The position numbers and the translations under genes were made by a program. From the IMG/VR virus record IMGVR_UViG_3300048014_000353, positions 1 through 64,000 of that record: 64,000 nucleotides of DNA. One strand, written 5' to 3'. Shown piece by piece: positions 7,515-33,896 of this stretch (position 1 is the first letter of the stretch; each line of letters begins with the position of its first letter). Origin of the DNA: a virus. The notes below the pieces were generated by a model that was given only the letters and a program-made list of their open reading frames with translations, searched no databases and had not been told where the DNA came from.

Positions 7515-7933
7515 TACGGTTTTGACTCTGGAGGTCAATGATGATGGGTCGTCGGAGCGAAGCCATGAGCAAACGAAACGCGAACCTGAAGACCGCATGG
7601 ATCGGCCGCCGGCTCTTCGGGGTCCAGTGGGCTCCGGACGGCAAGTGGGACTGGACGTCGAACGTCGGCGATCGGCACTCGGACTATGCGTCCGTCGCGC
7701 TCTGTACGAGCGGCCCCATGCGCTTCCTTCGGATCACGCTCGGGCCGGTGGCGCTCCTCGTTTCGAGCCGACGAGGCGCCTAATGCGACCTCGCCTGCGG
7801 TCCTTGGTGGAGTGGCCGATCATCGCTTGGTGGTGGGACCACGGGCCCGCGCCTCTATGCCCGAAGTGGTGCACGTGCCGCGGCGCGCACGACATGATTG
7901 CGCGAGGTCCTTCGCCTCGCGCCGGGGAGTAGA

Positions 7934-8284
7934 ATGGACCTGAACATGTCGCGTTGGCCTTGGCGTACCTGGGACCTCCTTCAACAGATCGAGGCAGCTT
8001 CCGACGGTCGGAGCCCGGAGCAGCGCTCCGGCGTCGCGGAGCTCCGAGGGCTCGGCGTGTCGGGCGCAGACCCGCGCATCCGAGCGTTCGAGCGTCGCGG
8101 GTTCGTGGTCTGCGAGGGGTTCGGGGAGATCGTCGGCGGGGACGGCTACGGACTCACGAGGGCCGACGGCTCGCTGGTCGAGCGACCCATCTGGGTCATC
8201 ACGGCCGCTGGCCGCGCCGCGCTCCACTCGAGCGTCGGGCAGAAAGCGAAACGCGACGCCGGAATCGTCATCGATTCGCCCTAG
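7934..8284 (+). CDS. Hypothetical protein
   Basis: ATG preceded by GGGGAG; coding-like composition. Confidence 0.45.
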   Translation: MDLNMSRWPWRTWDLLQQIEAASDGRSPEQRSGVAELRGLGVSGADPRIRAFERRGFVVCEGFGEIVGGDGYGLTRADGSLVERPIWVITAAGRAALHSSVGQKAKRDAGIVIDSP

Positions 8285-8320
8285 CCGTTACTCCTTGGCG
8301 CGTGTCAGCGTCCGAGTCGC

Positions 8321-9937
8321 GTGGCTGTCCCCGTCCCGAGTGCGCTGTCGAAGCTCGACACGAAGGTCCTGTCCTCGAAGGAGCAGGTCGATCTGGCCGT
8401 GCGCGCCAAGGCCGGCGACGTTGCCGCGCGCGACAAGCTGATCCAGCACAACCTGCGCTTCGTCTGGAAGATCTCCCAGAAGTACATCCGACGGCGTCGG
8501 ACGACAGAGATCGACGACCTCGTGAGCGAGGGGGTGCTCGGCCTGATGACGGCCATCGACCGGTTCGAACCCGAGCGCGGTTTCGCCTTCATCACGTACG
8601 CGAGCAACTGGGTCCGTCACCATATCAGCCGGCGCGCCAGCTACGATCGCAGCATGGCGTACGTGCCCGTGCACGCGAGCGATGCGGCGCGCAACGTCGC
8701 CACCCGTCGCCACGAGCTCTTCGCCTTGGGGCTCGAGCCCGAGGAGGAGGAAGAGATTCTCGTCAAGGAATTCGGCGCGAAGGCCGTGCTGGTCGAGCGC
8801 AAGACCTCCGTGAACGGCGTGTCGCTGGATGCGGAGATGGGGGAGGACGGGGGTCTCACGCTCTACGACGTGCTTCGACTGGAGGGCGACGGGGGCGACG
8901 CCATCGCGGACAAAGACCTCGACGACCACATTCGAGCGGTCATCGAGCGCGTACGACGCCGCACGCACGACGAGCGCAAGCTCGCCATCCTCGACCGTCG
9001 ACTGCTCGGGAGGGAGACGCTGGCCGACATCGCCCAAACATTCGGGTGCTCACGCGAGCGAATCCGACAGCTGGAGGCCGAGGTGGTCGCGCTCCTGAAG
9101 CGCGAGATCCAAGCCTCCATTCCCGAAGAAGCGCACGATCGCGCGCGACCGCGACCGCGGCGGAAGACGGAGAGATCCAAAGATCGGGTGCGGGACTCGA
9201 TCACCCGCGCTATCTCGCAGCGGGGTGTTGCCGAGGTGCCCATTCCGGCGGTGCGATCGGTGGAGGTCGCGGCCAATGGACTGCGAGTCGGCCAAGTGGT
9301 GGGGGCCGTACCCAAGGACAGTTCCACGTTCCGTCGAAATTTACCGGTTCAGTGGTCTGACAAGGCGCCCGCTACCTCCGTCGTACGCGCTGCGCCGTCC
9401 CCGGCGCCCCCCGAACCGTGTGCCTCACCCAACGAGACGCTGCCCATGCCGAAGAAGAAGAGAGTCCTCAACCCGAGCACCCAGGAGATCGCGCGCAGGT
9501 ACGAAGCGGGCGAAGACCCGCGCGAGATTGCCAAGGTGATGGGAAAGCCCGAAGCGTCGGTGCGCGCCAAGGTCTCCGTTCTCCGGAGAAGCGGCATCAT
9601 TCATCGAACCCCGAAGCGACCGAAGGCCGATGCCGTGCCCGTCGCAACTCCTACCGCGAAGCCCGCGGCCGTCCCGAAGAATGGATTGACGTGGCTCGAT
9701 GCCCAGTCGGGCGACGTTCTGGGCGACGCGACGTCCATCGTGACCACCCTACGAGGTCCGAAGAAGTCGCCGGCACCCGTGCCGCTCGCGCAGGAGCCGT
9801 CGTTGGAAGGGACGACACCTGAAACGCAAGGCGGCGATCCCTTCGTGGCCCAGCTGCTTAAGCGACGCGAGGATCTGCAGCGGAAGATCGAGTGGATCGA
9901 TCGCGCCATCGAAGCGCTCCGGATGGCGACGCTGTGA
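8321..9937 (+). CDS. Sigma-70 family sigma factor with a long C-terminal extension (extra HTH and coiled coil)
   Basis: Region 2 (ARDKLIQHNLRFVWKISQKY, DDLVSEGVLGLMTAIDRFEPERGFAFITYASNWVR) and region 4 (ETLADIAQTFGCSRERIRQLE). Confidence 0.88.
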   Translation: MAVPVPSALSKLDTKVLSSKEQVDLAVRAKAGDVAARDKLIQHNLRFVWKISQKYIRRRRTTEIDDLVSEGVLGLMTAIDRFEPERGFAFITYASNWVRHHISRRASYDRSMAYVPVHASDAARNVATRRHELFALGLEPEEEEEILVKEFGAKAVLVERKTSVNGVSLDAEMGEDGGLTLYDVLRLEGDGGDAIADKDLDDHIRAVIERVRRRTHDERKLAILDRRLLGRETLADIAQTFGCSRERIRQLEAEVVALLKREIQASIPEEAHDRARPRPRRKTERSKDRVRDSITRAISQRGVAEVPIPAVRSVEVAANGLRVGQVVGAVPKDSSTFRRNLPVQWSDKAPATSVVRAAPSPAPPEPCASPNETLPMPKKKRVLNPSTQEIARRYEAGEDPREIAKVMGKPEASVRAKVSVLRRSGIIHRTPKRPKADAVPVATPTAKPAAVPKNGLTWLDAQSGDVLGDATSIVTTLRGPKKSPAPVPLAQEPSLEGTTPETQGGDPFVAQLLKRREDLQRKIEWIDRAIEALRMATL

Positions 9938-28199: not shown

Positions 28200-29291
28200 C
28201 TAGCCGCCGAACTCGCGGAAGCTGTCCTCGACCAGGTCGACGCAGAGCTCGTCGAGCTTCGCGCGATCGGGCGCGTCGGGAAGCTTGGACGCCTTGGCGA
28301 TCGCGTCGAGCTCCGCGTTCTCGCGGTCGCTCCACTCGATGAGCTGCTCGATGGTCCAGGCGCCCCGTCGGATCGCGAGCAACTCCTCGGCGTCCGGTCG
28401 TCGCACGAGGACCTTGCCGGTCGTGAGGATCTCCCGGCACATCTTCAGTAGCCGAACGAGATGCATGCCGTGCTTGAGATCGTAGCCGAACTTGGCCTCG
28501 AGCTCCGCGCGGGCCGCATTTCGGTTCACCTTCCACGCCTGGTACTGTTCCCACTCTTTGTGCCGTGCGTGGTACTGGCGCTCCCGGTCGAGAAGCTCGA
28601 TGAAGTTGGACTCGAACCCGACCGCGCGCGCCGCGCCGATCCAGAGGTCACCGGTCGTCACGTGCATCTCGGCGATGGAGTCGGCCATCTTGTCCGCGAT
28701 GAGGAGGCGGCTCGCGGGGTCAAGGTCTCCGACGAAGTCGAGGTTCCAGTCCTTCAGCTTTTTCTCGACCGCGGATCGGGCGGCGGCGATCTGGTCCTGC
28801 GGGATGACCGTCCGCTCGGGTAGACCGAACTCTGCACGCGTCGGCGGCGCCGTCATCGGGTCGCGCAGCCAGCGCATGTGCCCTCGGATTCGGCGAAGCT
28901 GCCCGGTCGCGTACCCCGCGTAGGTGTGCTTGGCCTTCTTCGAGAGGAAAAGATCGCGCGCCGCACGCAGACGCTCACCGAGCGGCGTCATCACGAGCAC
29001 GTCGCTGTCCTCGACGAAGAGGATCTCAAGTACGTTCGGGTTGCAGTCGGCCGCGAGCTGCATGAACTTTCGCAGGCCGAAGATGGTCACGTCCGGCGAC
29101 TTCATCTCGGCCTGCTCAAAGGCGTGCGCGAAGCCGTGGAAGTAGCTGCTCGGCGGGATGGCAACGCCGCGGAAGTCTTCGTCGCTGGTCGCGATGTTGG
29201 TTCCATAAGCATGCGATCCGTGCCGTGCGAAGAACACCGTGCGGCGCGTGAGCCATGGCAGGTTTCCCGTGTACGGAATGCAGTACGTCAT
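28200..29291 (-). CDS. Nucleotidyltransferase, Pol-beta superfamily (RlaP/Nuc-transf-like)
   Basis: HGSHAYGTNIATSDEDFRGV...CNPNVLEILF...GYDLKHGMHLVRLL. Confidence 0.85.
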   Translation of the reverse strand: MTYCIPYTGNLPWLTRRTVFFARHGSHAYGTNIATSDEDFRGVAIPPSSYFHGFAHAFEQAEMKSPDVTIFGLRKFMQLAADCNPNVLEILFVEDSDVLVMTPLGERLRAARDLFLSKKAKHTYAGYATGQLRRIRGHMRWLRDPMTAPPTRAEFGLPERTVIPQDQIAAARSAVEKKLKDWNLDFVGDLDPASRLLIADKMADSIAEMHVTTGDLWIGAARAVGFESNFIELLDRERQYHARHKEWEQYQAWKVNRNAARAELEAKFGYDLKHGMHLVRLLKMCREILTTGKVLVRRPDAEELLAIRRGAWTIEQLIEWSDRENAELDAIAKASKLPDAPDRAKLDELCVDLVEDSFREFGG

Positions 29292-29559
29292 GCGGCTTTC
29301 CGTTCCTTGTCCTTCACGACCGCGACCATACGGCACTCCGCGCACGACTTGAAGCCGACCGTGACCGGGTCCCCGCAGCGGCAAACGCCGACGCGCTTCT
29401 TGTTCCAGTAGGAGCGTCGGTTGGATGCGCGTCGCGACTTGCGACACGGAGCACAGAGACACGCGTCTCCGCGCGCGATCGGGCGCGCGCCGCACTCGCA
29501 CATCCCCGCGGCCCTCATCCGAGCGCGGAACGACTTGACGTATTCGTAGGGCATCGCGC

Positions 29560-29851
29560 TCACGGTCGCCTCCGGAGAAATTCGCGAATCTCGTCGATGG
29601 ACACCGGCGCGTAGGCCCACTGATCGACCCCCACGTTCAGCATCCCGTTCTGGCTCGCCGGCTCGATGCGGTACCTCCAGAGTTCGTGGACGTGTCCGTG
29701 GAGAAGCGCGCGCCCGGGAGCCATCGGCGGCCGGTACTCGGGGTAGCGCGGCTCCGCCGAGTGGTCGCCCACCGCAGGAAAGTGGCAGAGGCGAAACTCC
29801 TCGTAGTCCACCCAGTTGCCGTGGATGGTCGCGAAGCCGAGCCGGTGGTAG
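29560..29851 (-). pseudogene. Metallophosphoesterase, C-terminal half (split by the IS1 element)
   Basis: LCHFP, LLHGHVH, LNVGVDQWAYAPVS. Confidence 0.85.
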
Positions 29852-29913
29852 GGCACTGGTCGGTTTTGAAATGACGCGGCTCGTGCCAACGGCGGCGGGG
29901 CACTCTCTCGCCC

Positions 29914-30237
29914 ATGGCGATCCTGTTGGAGCGGGTCACGTGGCGGAAGGCGAAGCAGTTCACGGCAGGGGCGACGACGCCGGACCTTACGGCGGACGAA
30001 GTCGCCAACGCGAGGCGCGCGCTTCGTGTCCTACGGACACGTCACGGTGGCACCCGCGCGCTCGCGGACGCGATTGGCGTAAGAGTCGCGACAGTACAGA
30101 ACGGGATGAAACCACGTCGGAAGGTCGGCGTCGGGCTCGCGCTACGTCTTGCGCGGCTCGCGGGCGTGCCGCTGGAGGACGTACTTAGTGGGGCTTGGCC
30201 GAAGCATGGCTCGTGCCCTATGTGCGGCCGCTGTTGA
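29914..30237 (+). CDS. XRE-like HTH passenger protein
   Basis: RALADAIGVRVATVQN...VGLALRLARLAGVPLEDVL. Confidence 0.65.
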   Translation: MAILLERVTWRKAKQFTAGATTPDLTADEVANARRALRVLRTRHGGTRALADAIGVRVATVQNGMKPRRKVGVGLALRLARLAGVPLEDVLSGAWPKHGSCPMCGRC

Positions 30238-30421
30238 TGCCGCGCACGATGCGGGCGCCCGTTACCAGCGTCTCCCTAGCCCACGAAGTTACCGGCTTTC
30301 CAGCTAGACGCGCGGCCTCGACGATTTCGCCACGTTCCTCTTCGCTCAATCGCAAGGTGAACACCGTTGCGCGTGCTTCCCCCTCTGGCAGAGGGGGGCG
30401 CCCCATGCGCTTCGCCTTCAC
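30218..30421 (-). CDS. Ribbon-helix-helix/CopG-like protein
   Basis: MGRPPLP...VFTLRLSEEERGEIVEAARLAGKPVTSWARETL; coupled to the transposase stop. Confidence 0.7.
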   Translation of the reverse strand: MKAKRMGRPPLPEGEARATVFTLRLSEEERGEIVEAARLAGKPVTSWARETLVTGARIVRGINSGRT

Positions 30422-31263
30422 TGGGCATCCGTCCGGCTAAGCGCGGCATCCAGCAGCTCGTCCATGCTCCAGACGTGCTGCGCGACGCCAGCGGCCATCG
30501 CGGGCGTGCAGCGAATCGTCGAGTGGATCCGGCAGAGGTTGTAGTGCGCGAAGTGCAGCGCGACAGCGGCGCCATGGTTTTCCAATTTCTTCGAGTGCGC
30601 GTTCGTCAGCCGCGTGAAACGGCGGATCTGCATCCTCATCGTCAAGTTCTGGCGCTCGACGTAGCTCGTCGAGACCAGATCGGCGTCCGGCGAGCCGTAG
30701 ATCGGCGTCTTCTCCGTCGAAGTCACCCGCGGGGGCGAGTACCTACCACTGCCGGCGGCCTCGGCCTCGAACTCCTTTACGATCTGCGCGTAGTGCACGC
30801 CGCGCGACGCGAAAGCATCGCCGATCGCGTTGACGTACATGCGCAGACCGTCGGTGCTGATCTGCACGCGGTAGCGGAGGCGTGATGCGAGGTCCGAGAT
30901 GAACACGTTCGTCGTCTCCGCGTTGCGCTTGCCGGTGAGGAAGCACGGGATCAGCTTCGTGTCGGCGTCGATCGCGACATACGTCCACGTGTCGCCCACG
31001 CGCGAATCGTCGTCGTTGTCGGTCACACGCCTCTGCTTCTTCTGCACGAACGCCCACAGCTCGTCGATCTCCAGCCGCTTGCACGAGAGGTCACGCATCG
31101 TTTCGTCGAGCAGCGCCGCGCAGCCGTCGCCGACGCGCACGAGCAGACTGAGGACCGTCTCGCGACTCACGCCGACGAGACGCTCCGTGCCGCGCACGGA
31201 GACACCCTCGACGAGCGCGCTGAGGACCGCGATCTGCTTGGAGCGGGGGAGCACGTTTGCCAT
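30418..31263 (-). CDS. IS1-family DDE transposase
   Basis: HTH (EGVSVRGTERLVGVSRETV), LEIDELW, ISTDG, TSYVERQNLTMR..RRFTR.T..HSKK.ENH, TPAMAAG. Confidence 0.9.
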   Translation of the reverse strand: MANVLPRSKQIAVLSALVEGVSVRGTERLVGVSRETVLSLLVRVGDGCAALLDETMRDLSCKRLEIDELWAFVQKKQRRVTDNDDDSRVGDTWTYVAIDADTKLIPCFLTGKRNAETTNVFISDLASRLRYRVQISTDGLRMYVNAIGDAFASRGVHYAQIVKEFEAEAAGSGRYSPPRVTSTEKTPIYGSPDADLVSTSYVERQNLTMRMQIRRFTRLTNAHSKKLENHGAAVALHFAHYNLCRIHSTIRCTPAMAAGVAQHVWSMDELLDAALSRTDAQ

Positions 31264-31385
31264 GAACTAAACGTAACACGATAACAAACGACCGCAAGCG
31301 CAAAACATCGTTTTTTATGGCGTACGGAATGGTTTTTGGAATAATTTAGTTGACCTTTCTCTCTGGATTCGCCAAAGTCCTCAAA

Positions 31386-32012
31386 ATGCAGACCGTTCGC
31401 AGCGATGGGCGCCTGGAATACCTCAAGGAGCCGGACGTTCGTGCGAGGCTGGACAGGCATCACGACGCGCTTGCGAGGCTTGTCCGCGAGGCAAACGACC
31501 TCTGGGACCTCCACCTTGGAAAGCACTTCTCGCAGCCACTATCGCGGACGCGGAAGCAGTGCGTGTCGAACGCCTACTACTGCGGCGCCAAGGCCGTGTT
31601 TGGCGAGACGTCGGGCATCCGACTCGTGGAGGAGTCGGAGCGGCTCATGCTGGTAATCGACGACTCGTTCGTTGTGCGGTTCAAGTTCCTCAACCGGGGC
31701 AAGCGCACGATCAACTACCCCACGTCGGCGTCGCTCAAGATGGACGCTCAGTTGCCGATCCGTATCGCCGGGATCGAGCGCCTGCCTCGCGTTGTTCTTG
31801 GCTACACGCTCGGCGGGGTACCGCTGGCGCTCGACGGCACCTTCGTTCTGTTCGCCGTCGACAACAAGCCGATGTGGCACTACGGCATCGACGGCAAGGA
31901 CGCCGAGTCGCTTGTTCTCCCGTTCGAGGACGAAGACATGCCGGCCGAACACGAGTTTCGGATGGTGGGCGACGCGGATGAGTCCGACGAGTCTGCGAAG
32001 AAGGGCGGGTAA
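31386..32012 (+). CDS. Uncharacterised protein, putative toxin/effector partner of the HTH-M78 gene
   Basis: VVRFKFL...INYPT...Q...LPRVVLGYTL pattern resembles ORFs I recall upstream of XRE-ImmA genes; acidic tail; 14 nt from the next gene. Confidence 0.55.
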   Translation: MQTVRSDGRLEYLKEPDVRARLDRHHDALARLVREANDLWDLHLGKHFSQPLSRTRKQCVSNAYYCGAKAVFGETSGIRLVEESERLMLVIDDSFVVRFKFLNRGKRTINYPTSASLKMDAQLPIRIAGIERLPRVVLGYTLGGVPLALDGTFVLFAVDNKPMWHYGIDGKDAESLVLPFEDEDMPAEHEFRMVGDADESDESAKKGG

Positions 32013-32026
32013 CCAGGAGGCGGAAG

Positions 32027-33091
32027 ATGCCGAACGTCAACAAAGACATGCTCGTGCTCGCGCGCGAGTCGAGGCGCCTTACGCAGGAAAATCTGGCAAA
32101 GCTGGCAGGAGTTGGGCAGGGAACGATTTCAAAGGCCGAGGGCGGCTCTGGCCCAAGCGACGATCTCGTTGCTGCGTACGCGAAGCACCTCCGGTACCCG
32201 GTCGAGTTCTTCTACGAGACCCCGCCATCGACGCGGCTGCCGGTCGCCTTCTACCGGAAGAAGAGGTCGGTGGACGTGAAGCACCTTCGCGCCATCGACG
32301 CGCAAATGCGCATCTTGCGCATGCACTTGGACAAGCTCCTTCGATCGGTGGAGGCGCCTCCGATGCGGGTCCCTCTGGTGAACCTTCTCCGCGACTATCG
32401 CGGCTCGGCGAGCGACCTCGCTCAGGAGTTGCGGCTGCGGTGGCACGTGAAAAAGGGGCCTATCGAGAACATGACAAAGCTCGCCGAATCGCTCGGCGTC
32501 TTCGTCATTCGTTGGCACTTCGACACGCCGGATGTCGATGCGCTCAGCATGCACGAGGATGGCTTGCCTCCCGTCATCGTGATCGATGCAGCGATGTCGG
32601 GCGACCGCATGCGTTTCACGATCGCGCATGAACTCGCGCATATCATCATGCACCACCATCTCGCGCTCCCAGGGGCCGACTACGAAGCAGAGGCAGACGA
32701 GTTTGCGGCGGAGCTGCTGATGCCGAGGGACGAGATAAGGCCATTCCTGCGCGGACTGACCGTCGAAAAGCTCGCGCACCTGAAGGCTCACTGGCGCACC
32801 TCGATGGCGTCACTTCTACGTCGGGCCGGCGACCTGGAGGCGATCTCCGAGAGCCAGAGCGCAAAGCTCTGGTCGGTCATGTCCCACCTTGGGTTCAAGC
32901 GAAGTGAGCCCGTCGACGTTCCGCAGGAAGAGCCGACGCTCGCGAGGAACCTAGTCGCCTTCCACATGAAGCGGCTCGGCTACAGCGCGAAGGAAATGAG
33001 CTTGATGCTTCCTTGGAGCGAAGAGGAATTCGCTCGCACATATCTGGACGGCGCCACTCGCCGCGCAGGACTCCGAGTCGTGAAGTGGTGA
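32027..33091 (+). CDS. XRE HTH plus ImmA/IrrE (M78) zinc metallopeptidase
   Basis: LARESRRLTQENLAKLAGVGQGTISKAE; RFTIAHELAHI (intact HExxH); EAEADEFAAELLMP. Confidence 0.92.
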   Translation: MPNVNKDMLVLARESRRLTQENLAKLAGVGQGTISKAEGGSGPSDDLVAAYAKHLRYPVEFFYETPPSTRLPVAFYRKKRSVDVKHLRAIDAQMRILRMHLDKLLRSVEAPPMRVPLVNLLRDYRGSASDLAQELRLRWHVKKGPIENMTKLAESLGVFVIRWHFDTPDVDALSMHEDGLPPVIVIDAAMSGDRMRFTIAHELAHIIMHHHLALPGADYEAEADEFAAELLMPRDEIRPFLRGLTVEKLAHLKAHWRTSMASLLRRAGDLEAISESQSAKLWSVMSHLGFKRSEPVDVPQEEPTLARNLVAFHMKRLGYSAKEMSLMLPWSEEEFARTYLDGATRRAGLRVVKW

Positions 33092-33095
33092 AAAC

Positions 33096-33129
33096 AACGC
33101 CCGAGCGAGGTGACTCGCTCGGGCGTTTT
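33096..33129 (+). terminator. Perfect 14-bp hairpin plus TTTT directly 5' of the tRNA-like gene
   Basis: AACGCCCGAGCGAG-GTGA-CTCGCTCGGGCGTT-TT. Confidence 0.65.
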
Positions 33130-33224
33130 GGAAGCTTCGCCGTTCACTGGCGTGATTGAGGGGCTCTACATCCCGAGGCCCGCGGCTGGTACCCGCGTGG
33201 GGTTCGATTCCCGAAGCTTCCGCC
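33130..33224 (+). tRNA. tRNA-Sec-like allo-tRNA (9/3 cloverleaf) with CUA (amber) anticodon
   Basis: Manual fold: 9-bp acceptor GGAAGCTTC/GAAGCTTCC, G discriminator plus CC; D-arm CGTTCAC-TGGC-GTGATTG; anticodon arm GGGG-CTCTACA-TCCC; V-arm CGCGG-CTGGTAC-CCGCG; T-arm GGG-TTCGATT-CCC. Confidence 0.75.
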
Positions 33225-33231
33225 TCCGATT

Positions 33232-33540
33232 CTAACTCCGCTTCTTCGCTTCGTCCGCCAGGATCGAAGCGCGCACGGCCATGACCGGCCCGTCCACGGG
33301 CGGCACGCCGAGGATGGCCTTGAAGCGCCGCCGCGTGCCCTCGACGAGAACGCTCCAAGCATACGCACGCGTCGCGCCGCTCGGATGCCCAGCGAGCGCG
33401 AAGACCTTCACGGCGCCCTGCCAGACGATCTCGCCCTTGAAGCGCTCGTCCACCTCGACGGTCTCGACGTAGGTCGCTGGTACCCCGTGGAGATGCTCGA
33501 CGGCCTCGCGCAGTTCGTCGATCGAAACATCGTCGTCCAT
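33232..33540 (-). CDS. Conserved hypothetical passenger protein
   Basis: VWQGAVKVFALAGHPSGATRAYAWS...GVPPVDGPVMAVRASI; I recall this family from IS cargo. Confidence 0.65.
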   Translation of the reverse strand: MDDDVSIDELREAVEHLHGVPATYVETVEVDERFKGEIVWQGAVKVFALAGHPSGATRAYAWSVLVEGTRRRFKAILGVPPVDGPVMAVRASILADEAKKRS

Positions 33541-33607
33541 GCGGGCGAGTCTACGCGAGCGCGGACGATGCGCAGCGCGTCACGAAAGTTCAAAACCGAC
33601 CAGTGCC

Positions 33608-33896
33608 GGTGGTAGCGGTCGGCGGCGTTCCTCCATTTCCGGTGCTTTGGAAAACAAGCGTCGTGATTGCCGGCGATGAGGTGGTGGCGGCCGTTGAGCC
33701 GCGGGAGGTAGTCGCGGACGAGGCGGTCGTCGAGGCTGAAGTCTCCGAGGTGGAACGTCTCGTCCTCGGGGCTCACCCGATCGTTGAACCGCGCGACCAG
33801 CGCCTCGTTCATCTCGGCCACGTCGGCAAACGGGCGGCTCGCGTACCGGATGACGGCCGCGTGGCCGTAGTGCTGGTCGGAGGTGAAGAAGATCAA
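33608..33896 (-). pseudogene. Metallophosphoesterase, N-terminal half
   Basis: FFTSDQHYGH, FHLGDFS, LIAGNHD; joins in frame (DRYH-RLGFAT) to the 29560-29851 half when the IS is removed. Confidence 0.9.

What the first reader, a model, noticed from the sequence alone, without database searches (positions are those of the whole stretch)
33130..33224. Hidden tRNA-Sec-like allo-tRNA with an amber (CUA) anticodon
Seen: 95 nt folding as a cloverleaf, with a perfect 9-bp acceptor, a 3-bp T-stem with canonical TTCGATT loop, a long D-stem with a 4-nt TGGC loop, a 7-nt C-U-CUA-C-A anticodon loop, a long variable arm, and GGAAG...CTTCC-G-CC ends as in selC. Established: allo-tRNAs have 9/3 or 8/4 folds, resemble tRNA-Sec and are often missed by standard scanners; G73 plus a long V-arm are SerRS determinants; CUA reads UAG. 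Inference: a serine-inserting amber suppressor or tRNA mimic. Caveats: the anticodon stem has only 4 canonical pairs, the terminal A of CCA is not encoded, and the phage's genes otherwise use the standard code.
Basis: partly seen in the sequence, partly recalled or inferred. Interest (0 to 1): 0.9.

Follow-up and report, generated by a model that had tools for sequence, protein, structure and literature searches.

The report
Transposon-borne amber-anticodon allo-tRNA in phage
The 95-base element is a real, conserved, oddly shaped serine-type tRNA gene whose anticodon reads the UAG stop codon, but it is a hitch-hiker on a jumping gene (an IS1-family transposon from myxobacteria) that recently landed in this phage, not part of a phage recoding system.

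Summary
Observation confirmed. Window 33130-33224 (+) folds as a 9-bp acceptor / 3-bp T-stem cloverleaf with a long D stem, long variable arm, G73 and a 7-nt loop C-U-CUA-C-A. ARAGORN (default) and Rfam at gathering threshold miss it. Rfam tRNA-Sec gives 33.3 bits (cut-off 47), and relaxed ARAGORN calls the same 95 nt with anticodon CTA.

It lies inside an IS1-family transposon (29852-33607; perfect 19-bp inverted repeats, 8-bp target duplication) that split a phage metallophosphoesterase gene. Using the transposase as bait, I found ten homologous RNAs in related IS1 elements of Myxococcota genomes. Median identity is 55%. Standard pairs form in 91.5% of cells and 24 of 29 pairs show compensatory changes, including the 9th acceptor pair. 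The anticodon loop is nearly invariant (CUA or UUA in 10 of 11, always followed by C-A). Each copy has a strong hairpin 2-11 nt upstream.

The phage shows no TAG recoding. The RNA is absent from 160 other RmrA (RosmerTA antitoxin) loci, so it goes with the transposon, not the toxin-antitoxin cargo.

It is a new member of the published (9/3) allo-tRNA class. It is probably a weak serine-inserting nonsense suppressor, but decoding is untested. This scan has already found similar transposon-borne allo-tRNAs on other DNA.

The parts
33130..33224 (+). (9/3) allo-tRNA-type gene, anticodon CUA at 33166-33168. Acceptor 33130-38 with 33213-21. D arm 33142-57. Anticodon arm 33158-76. Variable arm 33181-97. 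T arm 33200-12. Discriminator G at 33222.
   Evidence: Sequence. Rfam tRNA-Sec 33.3 bits. Own model R2 93.7 bits, against at most 32.7 bits for the phage's own tRNAs. Covariation in 11 homologues. Relaxed ARAGORN calls anticodon cta.
33096..33129 (+). Perfect 14-bp hairpin with GTGA loop, then TT, ending at the base before G1 of the RNA. Flanked by A-run and T-run, so it looks like a bidirectional terminator.
   Evidence: -29.7 kcal/mol, z -4.7. An equivalent hairpin lies 2-11 nt upstream of all 10 homologues, with unrelated sequences.
32027..33091 (+). HTH plus M78 zinc-peptidase gene of RmrA type (RosmerTA antitoxin). It is cargo placed directly upstream of the hairpin and RNA.
   Evidence: Pfam HTH_3 and Peptidase_M78. 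PADLOC RmrA E 5e-60.
31350..32012 (+). Unknown 220-aa ORF in the position of the RosmerTA toxin.
   Evidence: High GC3 coding signal. No Pfam or PADLOC hit.
30418..31263 (-). IS1-family DDE transposase, intact.
   Evidence: Pfam DDE_Tnp_IS1. Homologues at 70-86% identity are named IS1 family transposase. Closest genomic relatives are in Myxococcota MAGs.
29914..30237 (+). Small conserved ORF (107 aa, ends in a CxxC motif) reading inward from the left end of the transposon.
   Evidence: 39-45% identity to the equivalent ORFs in L166, L167 and L168.
33232..33540 (-). Conserved 102-aa accessory gene of this IS1 subgroup. It is convergent with the RNA, and its stop codon lies 8 nt beyond the RNA's 3' end.
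   Evidence: Alignment of 8 homologues at 47-81% identity. tblastn matches it in 47 of the loci held; duplicates apart, that is most of the transposase-baited IS1 loci, with or without the RNA. Atlas clusters of hypothetical proteins.
29852..29870 (.). Left terminal inverted repeat of the transposon. The 8-bp target duplication GGTGGTAG lies at 29844-29851.
33589..33607 (.). Right terminal inverted repeat, a perfect complement of the left one. The second copy of the target duplication lies at 33608-33615.
33616..33896 (-). 5' part of the phage metallophosphoesterase gene split by the transposon. The 3' part continues leftward from 29851.
   Evidence: Pfam Metallophos, weak. Removing the element and one duplication copy in silico gives one continuous 316-codon frame.

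Best explanation
Shown: this is a gene for a (9/3) allo-tRNA, a tRNA-Ser/Sec-like RNA. It has a 9-bp acceptor stem, a 3-bp T stem (12 bp in all, as elongation factor Tu needs), a long D stem with a tetraloop, a long variable arm, G73 and anticodon CUA. It belongs to a family of at least 11 RNAs carried as a fixed passenger by one subgroup of IS1-family transposons of Myxococcota. The copy here arrived when such a transposon inserted into a phage metallophosphoesterase gene.

Inferred: the RNA is co-transcribed with the upstream cargo through the adjacent hairpin. RNase P cuts it at G1, the 3' end is trimmed and the CCA is completed. Seryl-tRNA synthetase charges it, because the serine marks are conserved and that enzyme ignores the anticodon. 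EF-Tu then delivers it to read UAG (UAA/UAG in the UUA copies) as serine.

The upstream hairpin, the conserved C at position 37 and the mismatched anticodon stem should keep read-through low. That would make it a tolerated, weak, mobile nonsense suppressor. What the transposon gains from it is unknown.
For: - Homologues: ten RNAs sit in IS1 elements bounded by related inverted repeats.
- Covariation: 91.5% of cells form standard pairs, against 65% in shuffles and at most 52% in slid controls. 24 of 29 pairs have double changes.
- 9/3 fold: acceptor pair 8 forms in 11 of 11 copies and pair 9 in 10 of 11. The pairs a 7/5 fold would need form in only 1 and 4 of 11.
- Independent check: MAFFT plus RNAalifold recovers the acceptor and T stems.
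- Strand: G.U to A.C cells are 18 to 3, so the tRNA-sense strand is the RNA.
- Conserved marks at a median identity of 55%: anticodon loop positions 35-38 are invariant in the 10 copies with a full-length loop and position 34 is C or U; G1-C72, G2-C71 and A3-U70 are invariant; G73 in 10 of 11; T loop UUCGA in 9 of 11.
- ARAGORN calls the L185 homologue 'tRNA-Stop (tta)' at default settings, and six copies as cta or tta when relaxed.
- Architecture matches the published active 9/3 allo-tRNAs UTu1 and UTu2 (PMC7590224 supplement). Published 9/3 allo-tRNAs given a CUA anticodon suppress amber in E. coli, and the one with G73 inserted serine (PMC5389517).
- The phage's own tRNA cluster holds 8/4 His and Ser tRNAs, so non-7/5 tRNAs are in use in this system.
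Against: - No expression, charging or suppression data exist.
- Position 37 is C in all 11 copies, whereas working tRNAs almost always have a purine there. The published 9/3 chassis have A37.
- The anticodon stem has only 4 standard pairs here, with a conserved A.G mismatch (9 of 11 copies).
- No promoter was recognised, and a terminator-like hairpin abuts the 5' end.
- No gene in the transposon or the phage needs read-through.
- Mukai et al. found that many transposon- or toxin-antitoxin-associated allo-tRNAs (the UAU group) were inactive in E. coli.
Confidence: 0.5

Rival explanations
1. A non-decoding tRNA-like RNA that serves the transposon. Examples: a processing signal that lets RNase P define and stabilise the 3' end of the upstream cargo mRNA at the hairpin, a regulator or decoy that binds a tRNA-recognising protein, or an antisense partner of the convergent 102-aa gene. 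On this reading the conserved YUACA loop is a binding site, not an anticodon.
For: - C37 is invariant and the anticodon stem is imperfect.
- A hairpin directly abuts the 5' end in 11 of 11 copies.
- The RNA is tightly wedged between that hairpin and the stop codon of the convergent gene.
- Nothing nearby needs stop-codon read-through.
- The published allo-tRNA(UAU) group was inactive in translation and linked to transposons and toxin-antitoxin loci.
Against: - The marks that matter only for charging and delivery are conserved: G73, the first three acceptor pairs, a paired variable arm, and a 12-bp acceptor/T helix in every copy.
- The only variation in the anticodon, C or U at position 34, keeps it a stop-codon reader.
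Confidence: 0.3
2. A SECIS-independent selenocysteine inserter. The seryl-allo-tRNA(CUA) is converted by the host SelA and delivered by EF-Tu to UAG, as engineered allo-tRNA(UTu) does.
For: - The long D stem and tetraloop are the SelA binding site in 9/3 allo-tRNAs (PMC7590224).
- Polyangiales genomes carry genuine selC genes scoring 71-76 bits on Rfam tRNA-Sec.
Against: - No sel genes are linked to the element.
- The D stem here has a U.U mismatch, and D-loop length varies across the family.
- No candidate target genes were seen.
Confidence: 0.05
3. Third component of the RosmerTA-like cargo (unknown ORF plus RmrA peptidase plus RNA), for example the toxin's target, decoy or antitoxin.
For: - In the window and in L167, an RmrA gene with an unknown upstream ORF sits directly 5' of the hairpin and RNA.
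- Mukai et al. noted allo-tRNAs near toxin-antitoxin systems.
Against: - None of 160 loci with RmrA homologues (80 metagenomic, 80 viral) has the RNA.
- The RNA also occurs with unrelated cargo genes (L183, L168, L173, L178) and with none (L185).
Confidence: 0.05
4. Part of a phage amber-recoding system, as in phages that reassign a stop codon for late genes.
For: - The phage is large and carries about 30 tRNAs.
- The anticodon is CUA.
Against: - TAG ends 37 of 145 called genes.
- Open frames continuing past TAG (6) are no more frequent than past TGA (9) or TAA (5). No Pfam domain spans any of the six TAG sites.
- The gene came in on a recently inserted transposon, about 95 kb from the phage's tRNA cluster.
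Confidence: 0.02
5. A decayed tRNA or selC pseudogene, or a chance cloverleaf.
For: - The single-sequence fold is not more stable than shuffles.
- It scores below Rfam thresholds.
- The acceptor is built from a palindrome, GGAAGCTTCC.
Against: - Eleven diverged copies keep all five helices through compensatory changes and keep the loops.
- The window copy scores highest on the family model, 93.7 bits.
Confidence: 0.03

Closest known systems
(9/3) allo-tRNAs (Mukai et al. 2017, Nucleic Acids Res 45:2776, PMC5389517). Engineered forms are allo-tRNA UTu1 and UTu2 (PMC7590224).
   Same: - 9-bp acceptor plus 3-bp T stem.
- 6-bp D stem with a UGGY tetraloop that abuts a long anticodon stem.
- Long variable arm, GGG-UUCGAUU-CCC T arm and G73.
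- Found as a sub-threshold tRNA-Sec hit.
- Natural members include a UUA (UAA-reading) anticodon.
- Association with transposons and toxin-antitoxin loci.
   Different: - A natural CUA anticodon. The paper lists Arg, Leu and UAA-reading anticodons for 9/3 species, and CUA only as an engineered change.
- C rather than A at position 37.
- A conserved A.G mismatch in the anticodon stem.
- A conserved 5'-adjacent hairpin.
- Hosts are Myxococcota rather than Acidobacteria, and the carrier is a defined IS1-family element that has landed in a phage.
Bacterial tRNA-Sec (selC, Rfam RF01852)
   Same: - GGAAG...CUUCC-G ends.
- Long D stem with tetraloop, 6-pair anticodon stem and long variable arm.
- The family model cross-hits genuine Polyangiales selC genes at 43-46 bits.
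   Different: - 9/3 (12 bp) rather than 8/5 (13 bp).
- Anticodon CUA or UUA rather than UCA.
- Scores 33 bits against a cut-off of 47, while real selC genes score 71-76.
Transposon-borne allo-tRNAs noted earlier in this scan (IS1 with UAU; IS1 remnant with UUA; amber allo-tRNA on a small element in a huge phage)
   Same: The same RNA class, riding on mobile elements. One earlier case is also in a phage and also carries CUA.
   Different: Those are other genomes and other sub-families. Their claims were not re-tested here.
Phage-encoded suppressor tRNAs of stop-codon-recoded phages (own knowledge: Ivanova et al. 2014; Borges et al. 2022)
   Same: A CUA-anticodon tRNA gene in a phage genome.
   Different: Those are canonical 7/5 tRNAs in phages whose genes contain in-frame recoded stops. 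This phage shows no recoding, and the gene is transposon cargo.

Membership tests
(9/3) allo-tRNA | 12-bp acceptor branch split into a 9-bp acceptor stem and a 3-bp T stem | tested here: met
   Perfect 9 bp plus 3 bp in the window. Across 11 homologues, pairs 8 and 9 form in 11 and 10 copies, with covariation. The alternative 4th and 5th T-stem pairs form in 1 and 4 copies. One homologue, L168, reads better as 8/4.
(9/3) allo-tRNA | Long D stem with a tetraloop, as in tRNA-Sec | tested here: met
   6 pairs (one U.U) with loop UGGC in the window. The helix is 89% paired in the family, and all 6 pairs show double changes. D-loop length varies in some homologues.
(9/3) allo-tRNA | Long variable arm | tested here: met
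   5-bp stem with a 7-nt loop. The stem is 100% paired in the family, with double changes in all 5 pairs.
(9/3) allo-tRNA | Anticodon stem longer than the canonical 5 bp | tested here: inconclusive
   Six stacked positions, but only 4 are standard pairs in the window. One position is a conserved A.G (9 of 11 copies). The helix is 74% paired overall.
(9/3) allo-tRNA | Discriminator G73 or U73 (serine identity together with the variable arm) | tested here: met
   G in 10 of 11 copies and U in one. The first three acceptor pairs are invariant.
(9/3) allo-tRNA | Aminoacylation and use in translation | not testable with these tools
   Needs charging and reporter assays.
Bacterial tRNA-Sec (selC) | 8/5 (13-bp) acceptor branch, UCA anticodon and an Rfam RF01852 score above 47 bits | tested here: not met
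   9/3 fold, CUA anticodon and 33.3 bits. Genuine Polyangiales selC genes score 71-76 bits with loop CUUCAAA.
Canonical 7/5 tRNA (RF00005) | 7-bp acceptor, 5-bp T stem, and detection by standard models | tested here: not met
   No RF00005 hit at E <= 1. ARAGORN at default settings finds nothing. The 7/5 pairs are not supported.
Suppressor tRNA of a stop-codon-recoded phage | In-frame recoded stop codons in the phage's genes | tested here: not met
   TAG is a common terminator (37 of 145 genes). There is no excess of frames continuing past TAG and no domain spans a TAG.
RosmerTA system component | Regular co-occurrence with RmrA genes | tested here: not met
   0 of 160 RmrA-homologue loci hold the RNA. 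The RNA occurs with other cargo or with none.
Passenger of an IS1-family transposon | Lies between the terminal inverted repeats of an element with an IS1-family transposase and a target-site duplication | tested here: met
   Perfect 19-bp inverted repeats, 8-bp duplication and an intact transposase. Four homologues (L183, L166, L168, L167) lie between related inverted repeats, with one repeat found in L173; L251 and L264 have a transposase next to the RNA.

The most novel reading that the evidence does not exclude
The hairpin plus allo-tRNA(YUA, C37) is a purpose-built mobile module. It would be a deliberately attenuated or conditionally expressed nonsense-suppressor (or stop-codon-mimicking) RNA that one lineage of IS1 transposons keeps for its own benefit. 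Possible benefits: making the host depend on, or tolerate, the element; tuning expression of whatever cargo is placed upstream of it; or acting together with defence cargo such as RosmerTA. Phages could pick the module up by transposition. That would be a new functional link between transposons and the reading of the genetic code.
Probability: 0.15. Interest if true: 0.75.

Novelty: new member of a known kind. Interest (0 to 1): 0.5.

Why it matters
Allo-tRNAs are known mostly from short metagenomic reads and as chassis for genetic-code engineering. Their natural role is unresolved. This report gives a well-delimited natural family:
- stop-codon anticodons only (CUA or UUA);
- a defined vehicle, an IS1-family transposon with intact ends;
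- a likely source clade, Myxococcota of the Polyangiaceae and Kofleriaceae;
- two conserved oddities, C37 and a 5' hairpin, that can be mutated and tested;
- a documented transfer into a phage genome.

It also shows that an amber-anticodon tRNA in a phage need not mean recoding. For annotation, it is a reminder that standard tRNA scanners miss this class.

Tried and rejected
- **Single-sequence folding** is not informative (z -1.37 on the + strand, -1.10 on the - strand).
- **Exact 26-mer of the T arm and acceptor** in viral contigs: no match.
- **Peptidase (RmrA) as bait.**
  - The single protein found nothing in viral or genome contigs.
  - A profile fetched 80 metagenomic and 80 viral loci (at most 45% identity). 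None holds the RNA.
  - The closest homologue, P0003, is absent from viral contigs.
- **Closest peptidase homologues (60-74% identity).** One (P0002) appears to share a 26,459-bp contig with a 79%-identical transposase (P0160).
- **BLASTN** of the RNA against phage records, and of the whole transposon against plasmid records: only a trivial T-arm match and IS1 transposase matches.
- **Sigma-70 promoter scan:** none found.
- **A cis target for read-through.**
  - The transposases are intact.
  - The stop codons of the cargo genes and of the two small ORFs do not correlate with the anticodon, and the sequence after them is not conserved.
- **Complementarity between the hairpin and the anticodon arm:** a 6-mer in the window is not seen in the homologues.
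- **The conserved loop as a -35 box:** no acceptable -10 element at the right spacing (read by eye).
- **Phylum-wide sample of 150 Myxococcota genomes:** no further members.
- **Locus L262** comes from an unpublished genome (G193).

Full report
**1. The observation**

The window is the first 64 kb of a 138,550-bp virus record. It is 67% G+C.

Positions 33130-33224 read, 5' to 3':
- a 9-nt acceptor strand, GGAAGCUUC;
- a 3-nt linker;
- a 6-pair D stem (one U.U) with loop UGGC;
- an anticodon arm of four standard pairs extended by tandem G.A/A.G, closing the 7-nt loop C-U-C-U-A-C-A;
- a 5-bp variable-arm stem with a 7-nt loop;
- the T arm GGG-UUCGAUU-CCC;
- the complementary 9-nt acceptor strand;
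- G73, then CC, then T.

Standard scanners miss the element:
- ARAGORN finds no tRNA in the window. It does find 29 tRNAs at 127.8-132.2 kb of the genome.
- Rfam at gathering thresholds finds nothing.
- The general tRNA model does not reach E <= 1.
- Only the tRNA-Sec model responds, at 33.3 bits against a cut-off of 47.
- Relaxed ARAGORN (-ps80) calls exactly these 95 nt with anticodon cta.

The minimum-free-energy fold of the single sequence is not better than shuffles. The sequence alone therefore could not settle the matter.

**2. Where it sits**

The RNA lies inside a 3,756-bp element, 29852-33607.

The element's ends:
- perfect 19-bp terminal inverted repeats (GGCACTGGTCGGTTTTGAA);
- an 8-bp direct duplication, GGTGGTAG.

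The element's contents:
- an intact IS1-family transposase;
- a small ORF at each end, both reading inward;
- an unknown 220-aa ORF;
- an HTH plus M78 peptidase that matches the RosmerTA antitoxin RmrA at E 5e-60;
- a perfect 14-bp hairpin;
- the RNA.

Removing the element and one duplication copy in silico joins the two halves of a phage metallophosphoesterase gene into one 316-codon frame. The RNA therefore came into the phage on a recent transposon insertion. It lies about 95 kb from the phage's own tRNA cluster.

**3. Relatives**

*Baiting with the peptidase failed.* 160 loci with RmrA homologues (at most 45% identical) hold no related RNA. I searched them with a covariance model built from the candidate.

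*Baiting with the transposase worked.*
- A profile of close homologues fetched 80 loci from species-representative genomes.
- The nearest (66-84% identity) are all Myxococcota MAGs: Polyangiaceae, Kofleriaceae and 'Myxococcales'.
- Seven of them hold a homologous RNA.
- With a refined model, three more usable copies came from whole-genome searches of two myxobacterial orders. A further hit, L262, is from an unpublished genome and was left out.
- A phylum-wide sample of 150 genomes added none.
- Each of the five genomes checked in full has a single copy.

*Mobile-element context of the homologues.*
- Four homologues (L183, L166, L168, L167) lie inside elements bounded by related inverted repeats; one repeat was found in L173.
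- L251 and L264 have a transposase next to the RNA.

**4. It is a real structured RNA of the 9/3 kind**

The 11 sequences are 37-89% identical (median 55%).

On the model-guided alignment:
- 91.5% of cells form standard pairs, against 65% in shuffles and at most 52% when partners are slid;
- 24 of 29 pairs show changes on both sides;
- acceptor pairs 4-9, all D-stem and variable-arm pairs, and two of the three T-stem pairs covary.

Support for the 9/3 split:
- Acceptor pair 8 forms in 11 of 11 copies and pair 9 in 10 of 11.
- The pairs a 7/5 fold would need form in only 1 and 4 of 11.

An alignment made without any structural prior (MAFFT plus RNAalifold) recovers the 9-pair acceptor and 3-pair T stem, with compensatory changes.

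G.U cells outnumber A.C cells 18 to 3, so the tRNA-sense strand is the functional one.

The family model scores:
- members at 58-94 bits, with the window copy highest;
- genuine Polyangiales selC genes at 43-46 bits;
- the phage's own tRNAs at no more than 33 bits.

The architecture matches the published active 9/3 allo-tRNAs UTu1 and UTu2 arm for arm (PMC7590224 supplement). It also matches the class definition in PMC5389517.

**5. What is conserved beyond the fold**

- **Anticodon loop.** CUCUACA in 3 copies, CUUUACA in 4, CCUUACA in 2 and UUUUACA in 1. One copy has a 2-nt deletion. The anticodon is therefore CUA or UUA in 10 of 11, and C37-A38 is invariant.
- **Serine marks.** G1-C72, G2-C71 and A3-U70 never vary, although the other six acceptor pairs covary. 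G73 is present in 10 of 11. From established knowledge, these together with a long variable arm are the marks read by bacterial SerRS, which ignores the anticodon. The authors of PMC5389517 argue the same.
- **Helix length.** The acceptor plus T helix is 12 bp in every copy, the length EF-Tu accepts.
- **CCA.** Only C74 is conserved after G73, so CCA is not encoded.
- **Upstream hairpin.** Every copy has a strong hairpin, unrelated in sequence, ending 2-11 nt before G1 (z from -1.6 to -7.4).
- **Downstream gene.** In 9 of the 10 homologues, as in the window, a conserved ~100-aa gene converges on the RNA's 3' end (none found in the short L263 contig). tblastn finds that gene in most of the IS1 loci retrieved, whether or not they carry the RNA.
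- **Variable cargo.** The gene or genes between the RNA and the transposase differ from element to element:
  - an RmrA-type pair in the window and in L167;
  - unrelated 265-289-aa genes in four others;
  - no called gene in L185 and L166.

  The RNA therefore goes with the transposon, not with a particular cargo.

**6. What it is not**

*Not a phage recoding device.*
- TAG ends 37 of 145 genes called by third-position G+C content.
- Frames that stay open past a stop are no commoner for TAG (6) than for TGA (9) or TAA (5).
- None of the six TAG sites lies inside a Pfam domain.

*Not needed by the transposon's own genes.*
- The transposases are uninterrupted.
- No conserved extension follows any stop codon.

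*Not selC.* See the membership table.

**7. Mechanism**

The conserved charging and delivery marks, and an anticodon that varies only between two stop-codon readers, make a serine-accepting nonsense suppressor the best reading.

Three conserved features predict low activity:
- a hairpin that must be transcribed through;
- C rather than a modifiable purine at position 37;
- a mismatched anticodon stem.

I therefore propose a weak, tolerated suppressor, at about 0.5 for the whole chain. The steps after 'real conserved allo-tRNA gene on an IS1 element' are inference.

The main rival, at about 0.3, is a non-decoding tRNA-like RNA. It could be an RNase P processing or stabilising signal for the upstream mRNA, or a protein-binding decoy. 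Mukai et al. found the transposon-linked UAU group inactive.

**8. Novelty**

The class is published, including 9/3 members that read UAA and an association with transposons and toxin-antitoxin loci.

New here:
- a natural CUA anticodon in a 9/3 species;
- the coherent YUA-C37 sub-family with its 5' hairpin;
- its carriage by a defined IS1-family element of Myxococcota;
- its arrival in a phage.

No paper in the searched library links allo-tRNAs to phage-borne transposons or to IS1. Earlier notes of this scan report comparable transposon-borne allo-tRNAs on other DNA. Those notes are leads and were not re-tested.

**Limits**

- All homologues come from MAGs.
- The covariation alignment is fitted to the model, though the controls and the independent alignment agree with it.
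- Nothing is known about expression.

Noticed in passing
Same phage genome, outside the window: G000 128852-128924, 131632-131714 and about 131812-131896 (L001:1502-1574; L002:1502-1585 and 1682-1766): The phage's own tRNA cluster holds non-canonical 8/4 tRNAs. They are a tRNA-His(GUG) with a 6-bp D stem and UGGU tetraloop, a tRNA-Ser(CGA), and a further Ser-type tRNA (loop UUGCUAA, anticodon GCU) that ARAGORN and Rfam both miss. This fits the published note that phages use 8/4 Ser and His tRNAs.
   Followed up: partly
window 33232-33540 (-), with homologues in most of the IS1 loci L166-L205: A conserved ~100-aa protein with no Pfam family (only a spurious weak Chlorophyllase hit). It is a regular accessory gene of this IS1 subgroup in Myxococcota, Acidobacteriota and Verrucomicrobiota. 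Its function is unknown.
   Followed up: partly
window 31350-33091 (+) and L167:1082-2834 (-): RosmerTA-like pairs (an unknown ORF plus an RmrA HTH-M78 peptidase) carried as cargo of IS1-family transposons. The two RmrA proteins are too diverged to find each other by tblastn, so they were probably acquired independently.
   Followed up: partly
L252 and L257 (Polyangiales MAG loci): Dense arrays of 9-11 tRNA genes within 3 kb. They include 8/4-type Ser-like tRNAs that score about 41 bits on the tRNA-Sec model. These may be prophage tRNA clusters.
   Followed up: no
window 7898-9934 (+): A sigma-70-family factor gene (regions 2 and 4) begins in frame just after a TAG-terminated upstream ORF. These are two adjacent genes, not a read-through product.
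   Followed up: partly
window 28200-29501 (-): A 433-aa protein with an RlaP domain (RNA-repair-pathway DNA polymerase beta family nucleotidyltransferase), just left of the transposon insertion site.
   Followed up: no
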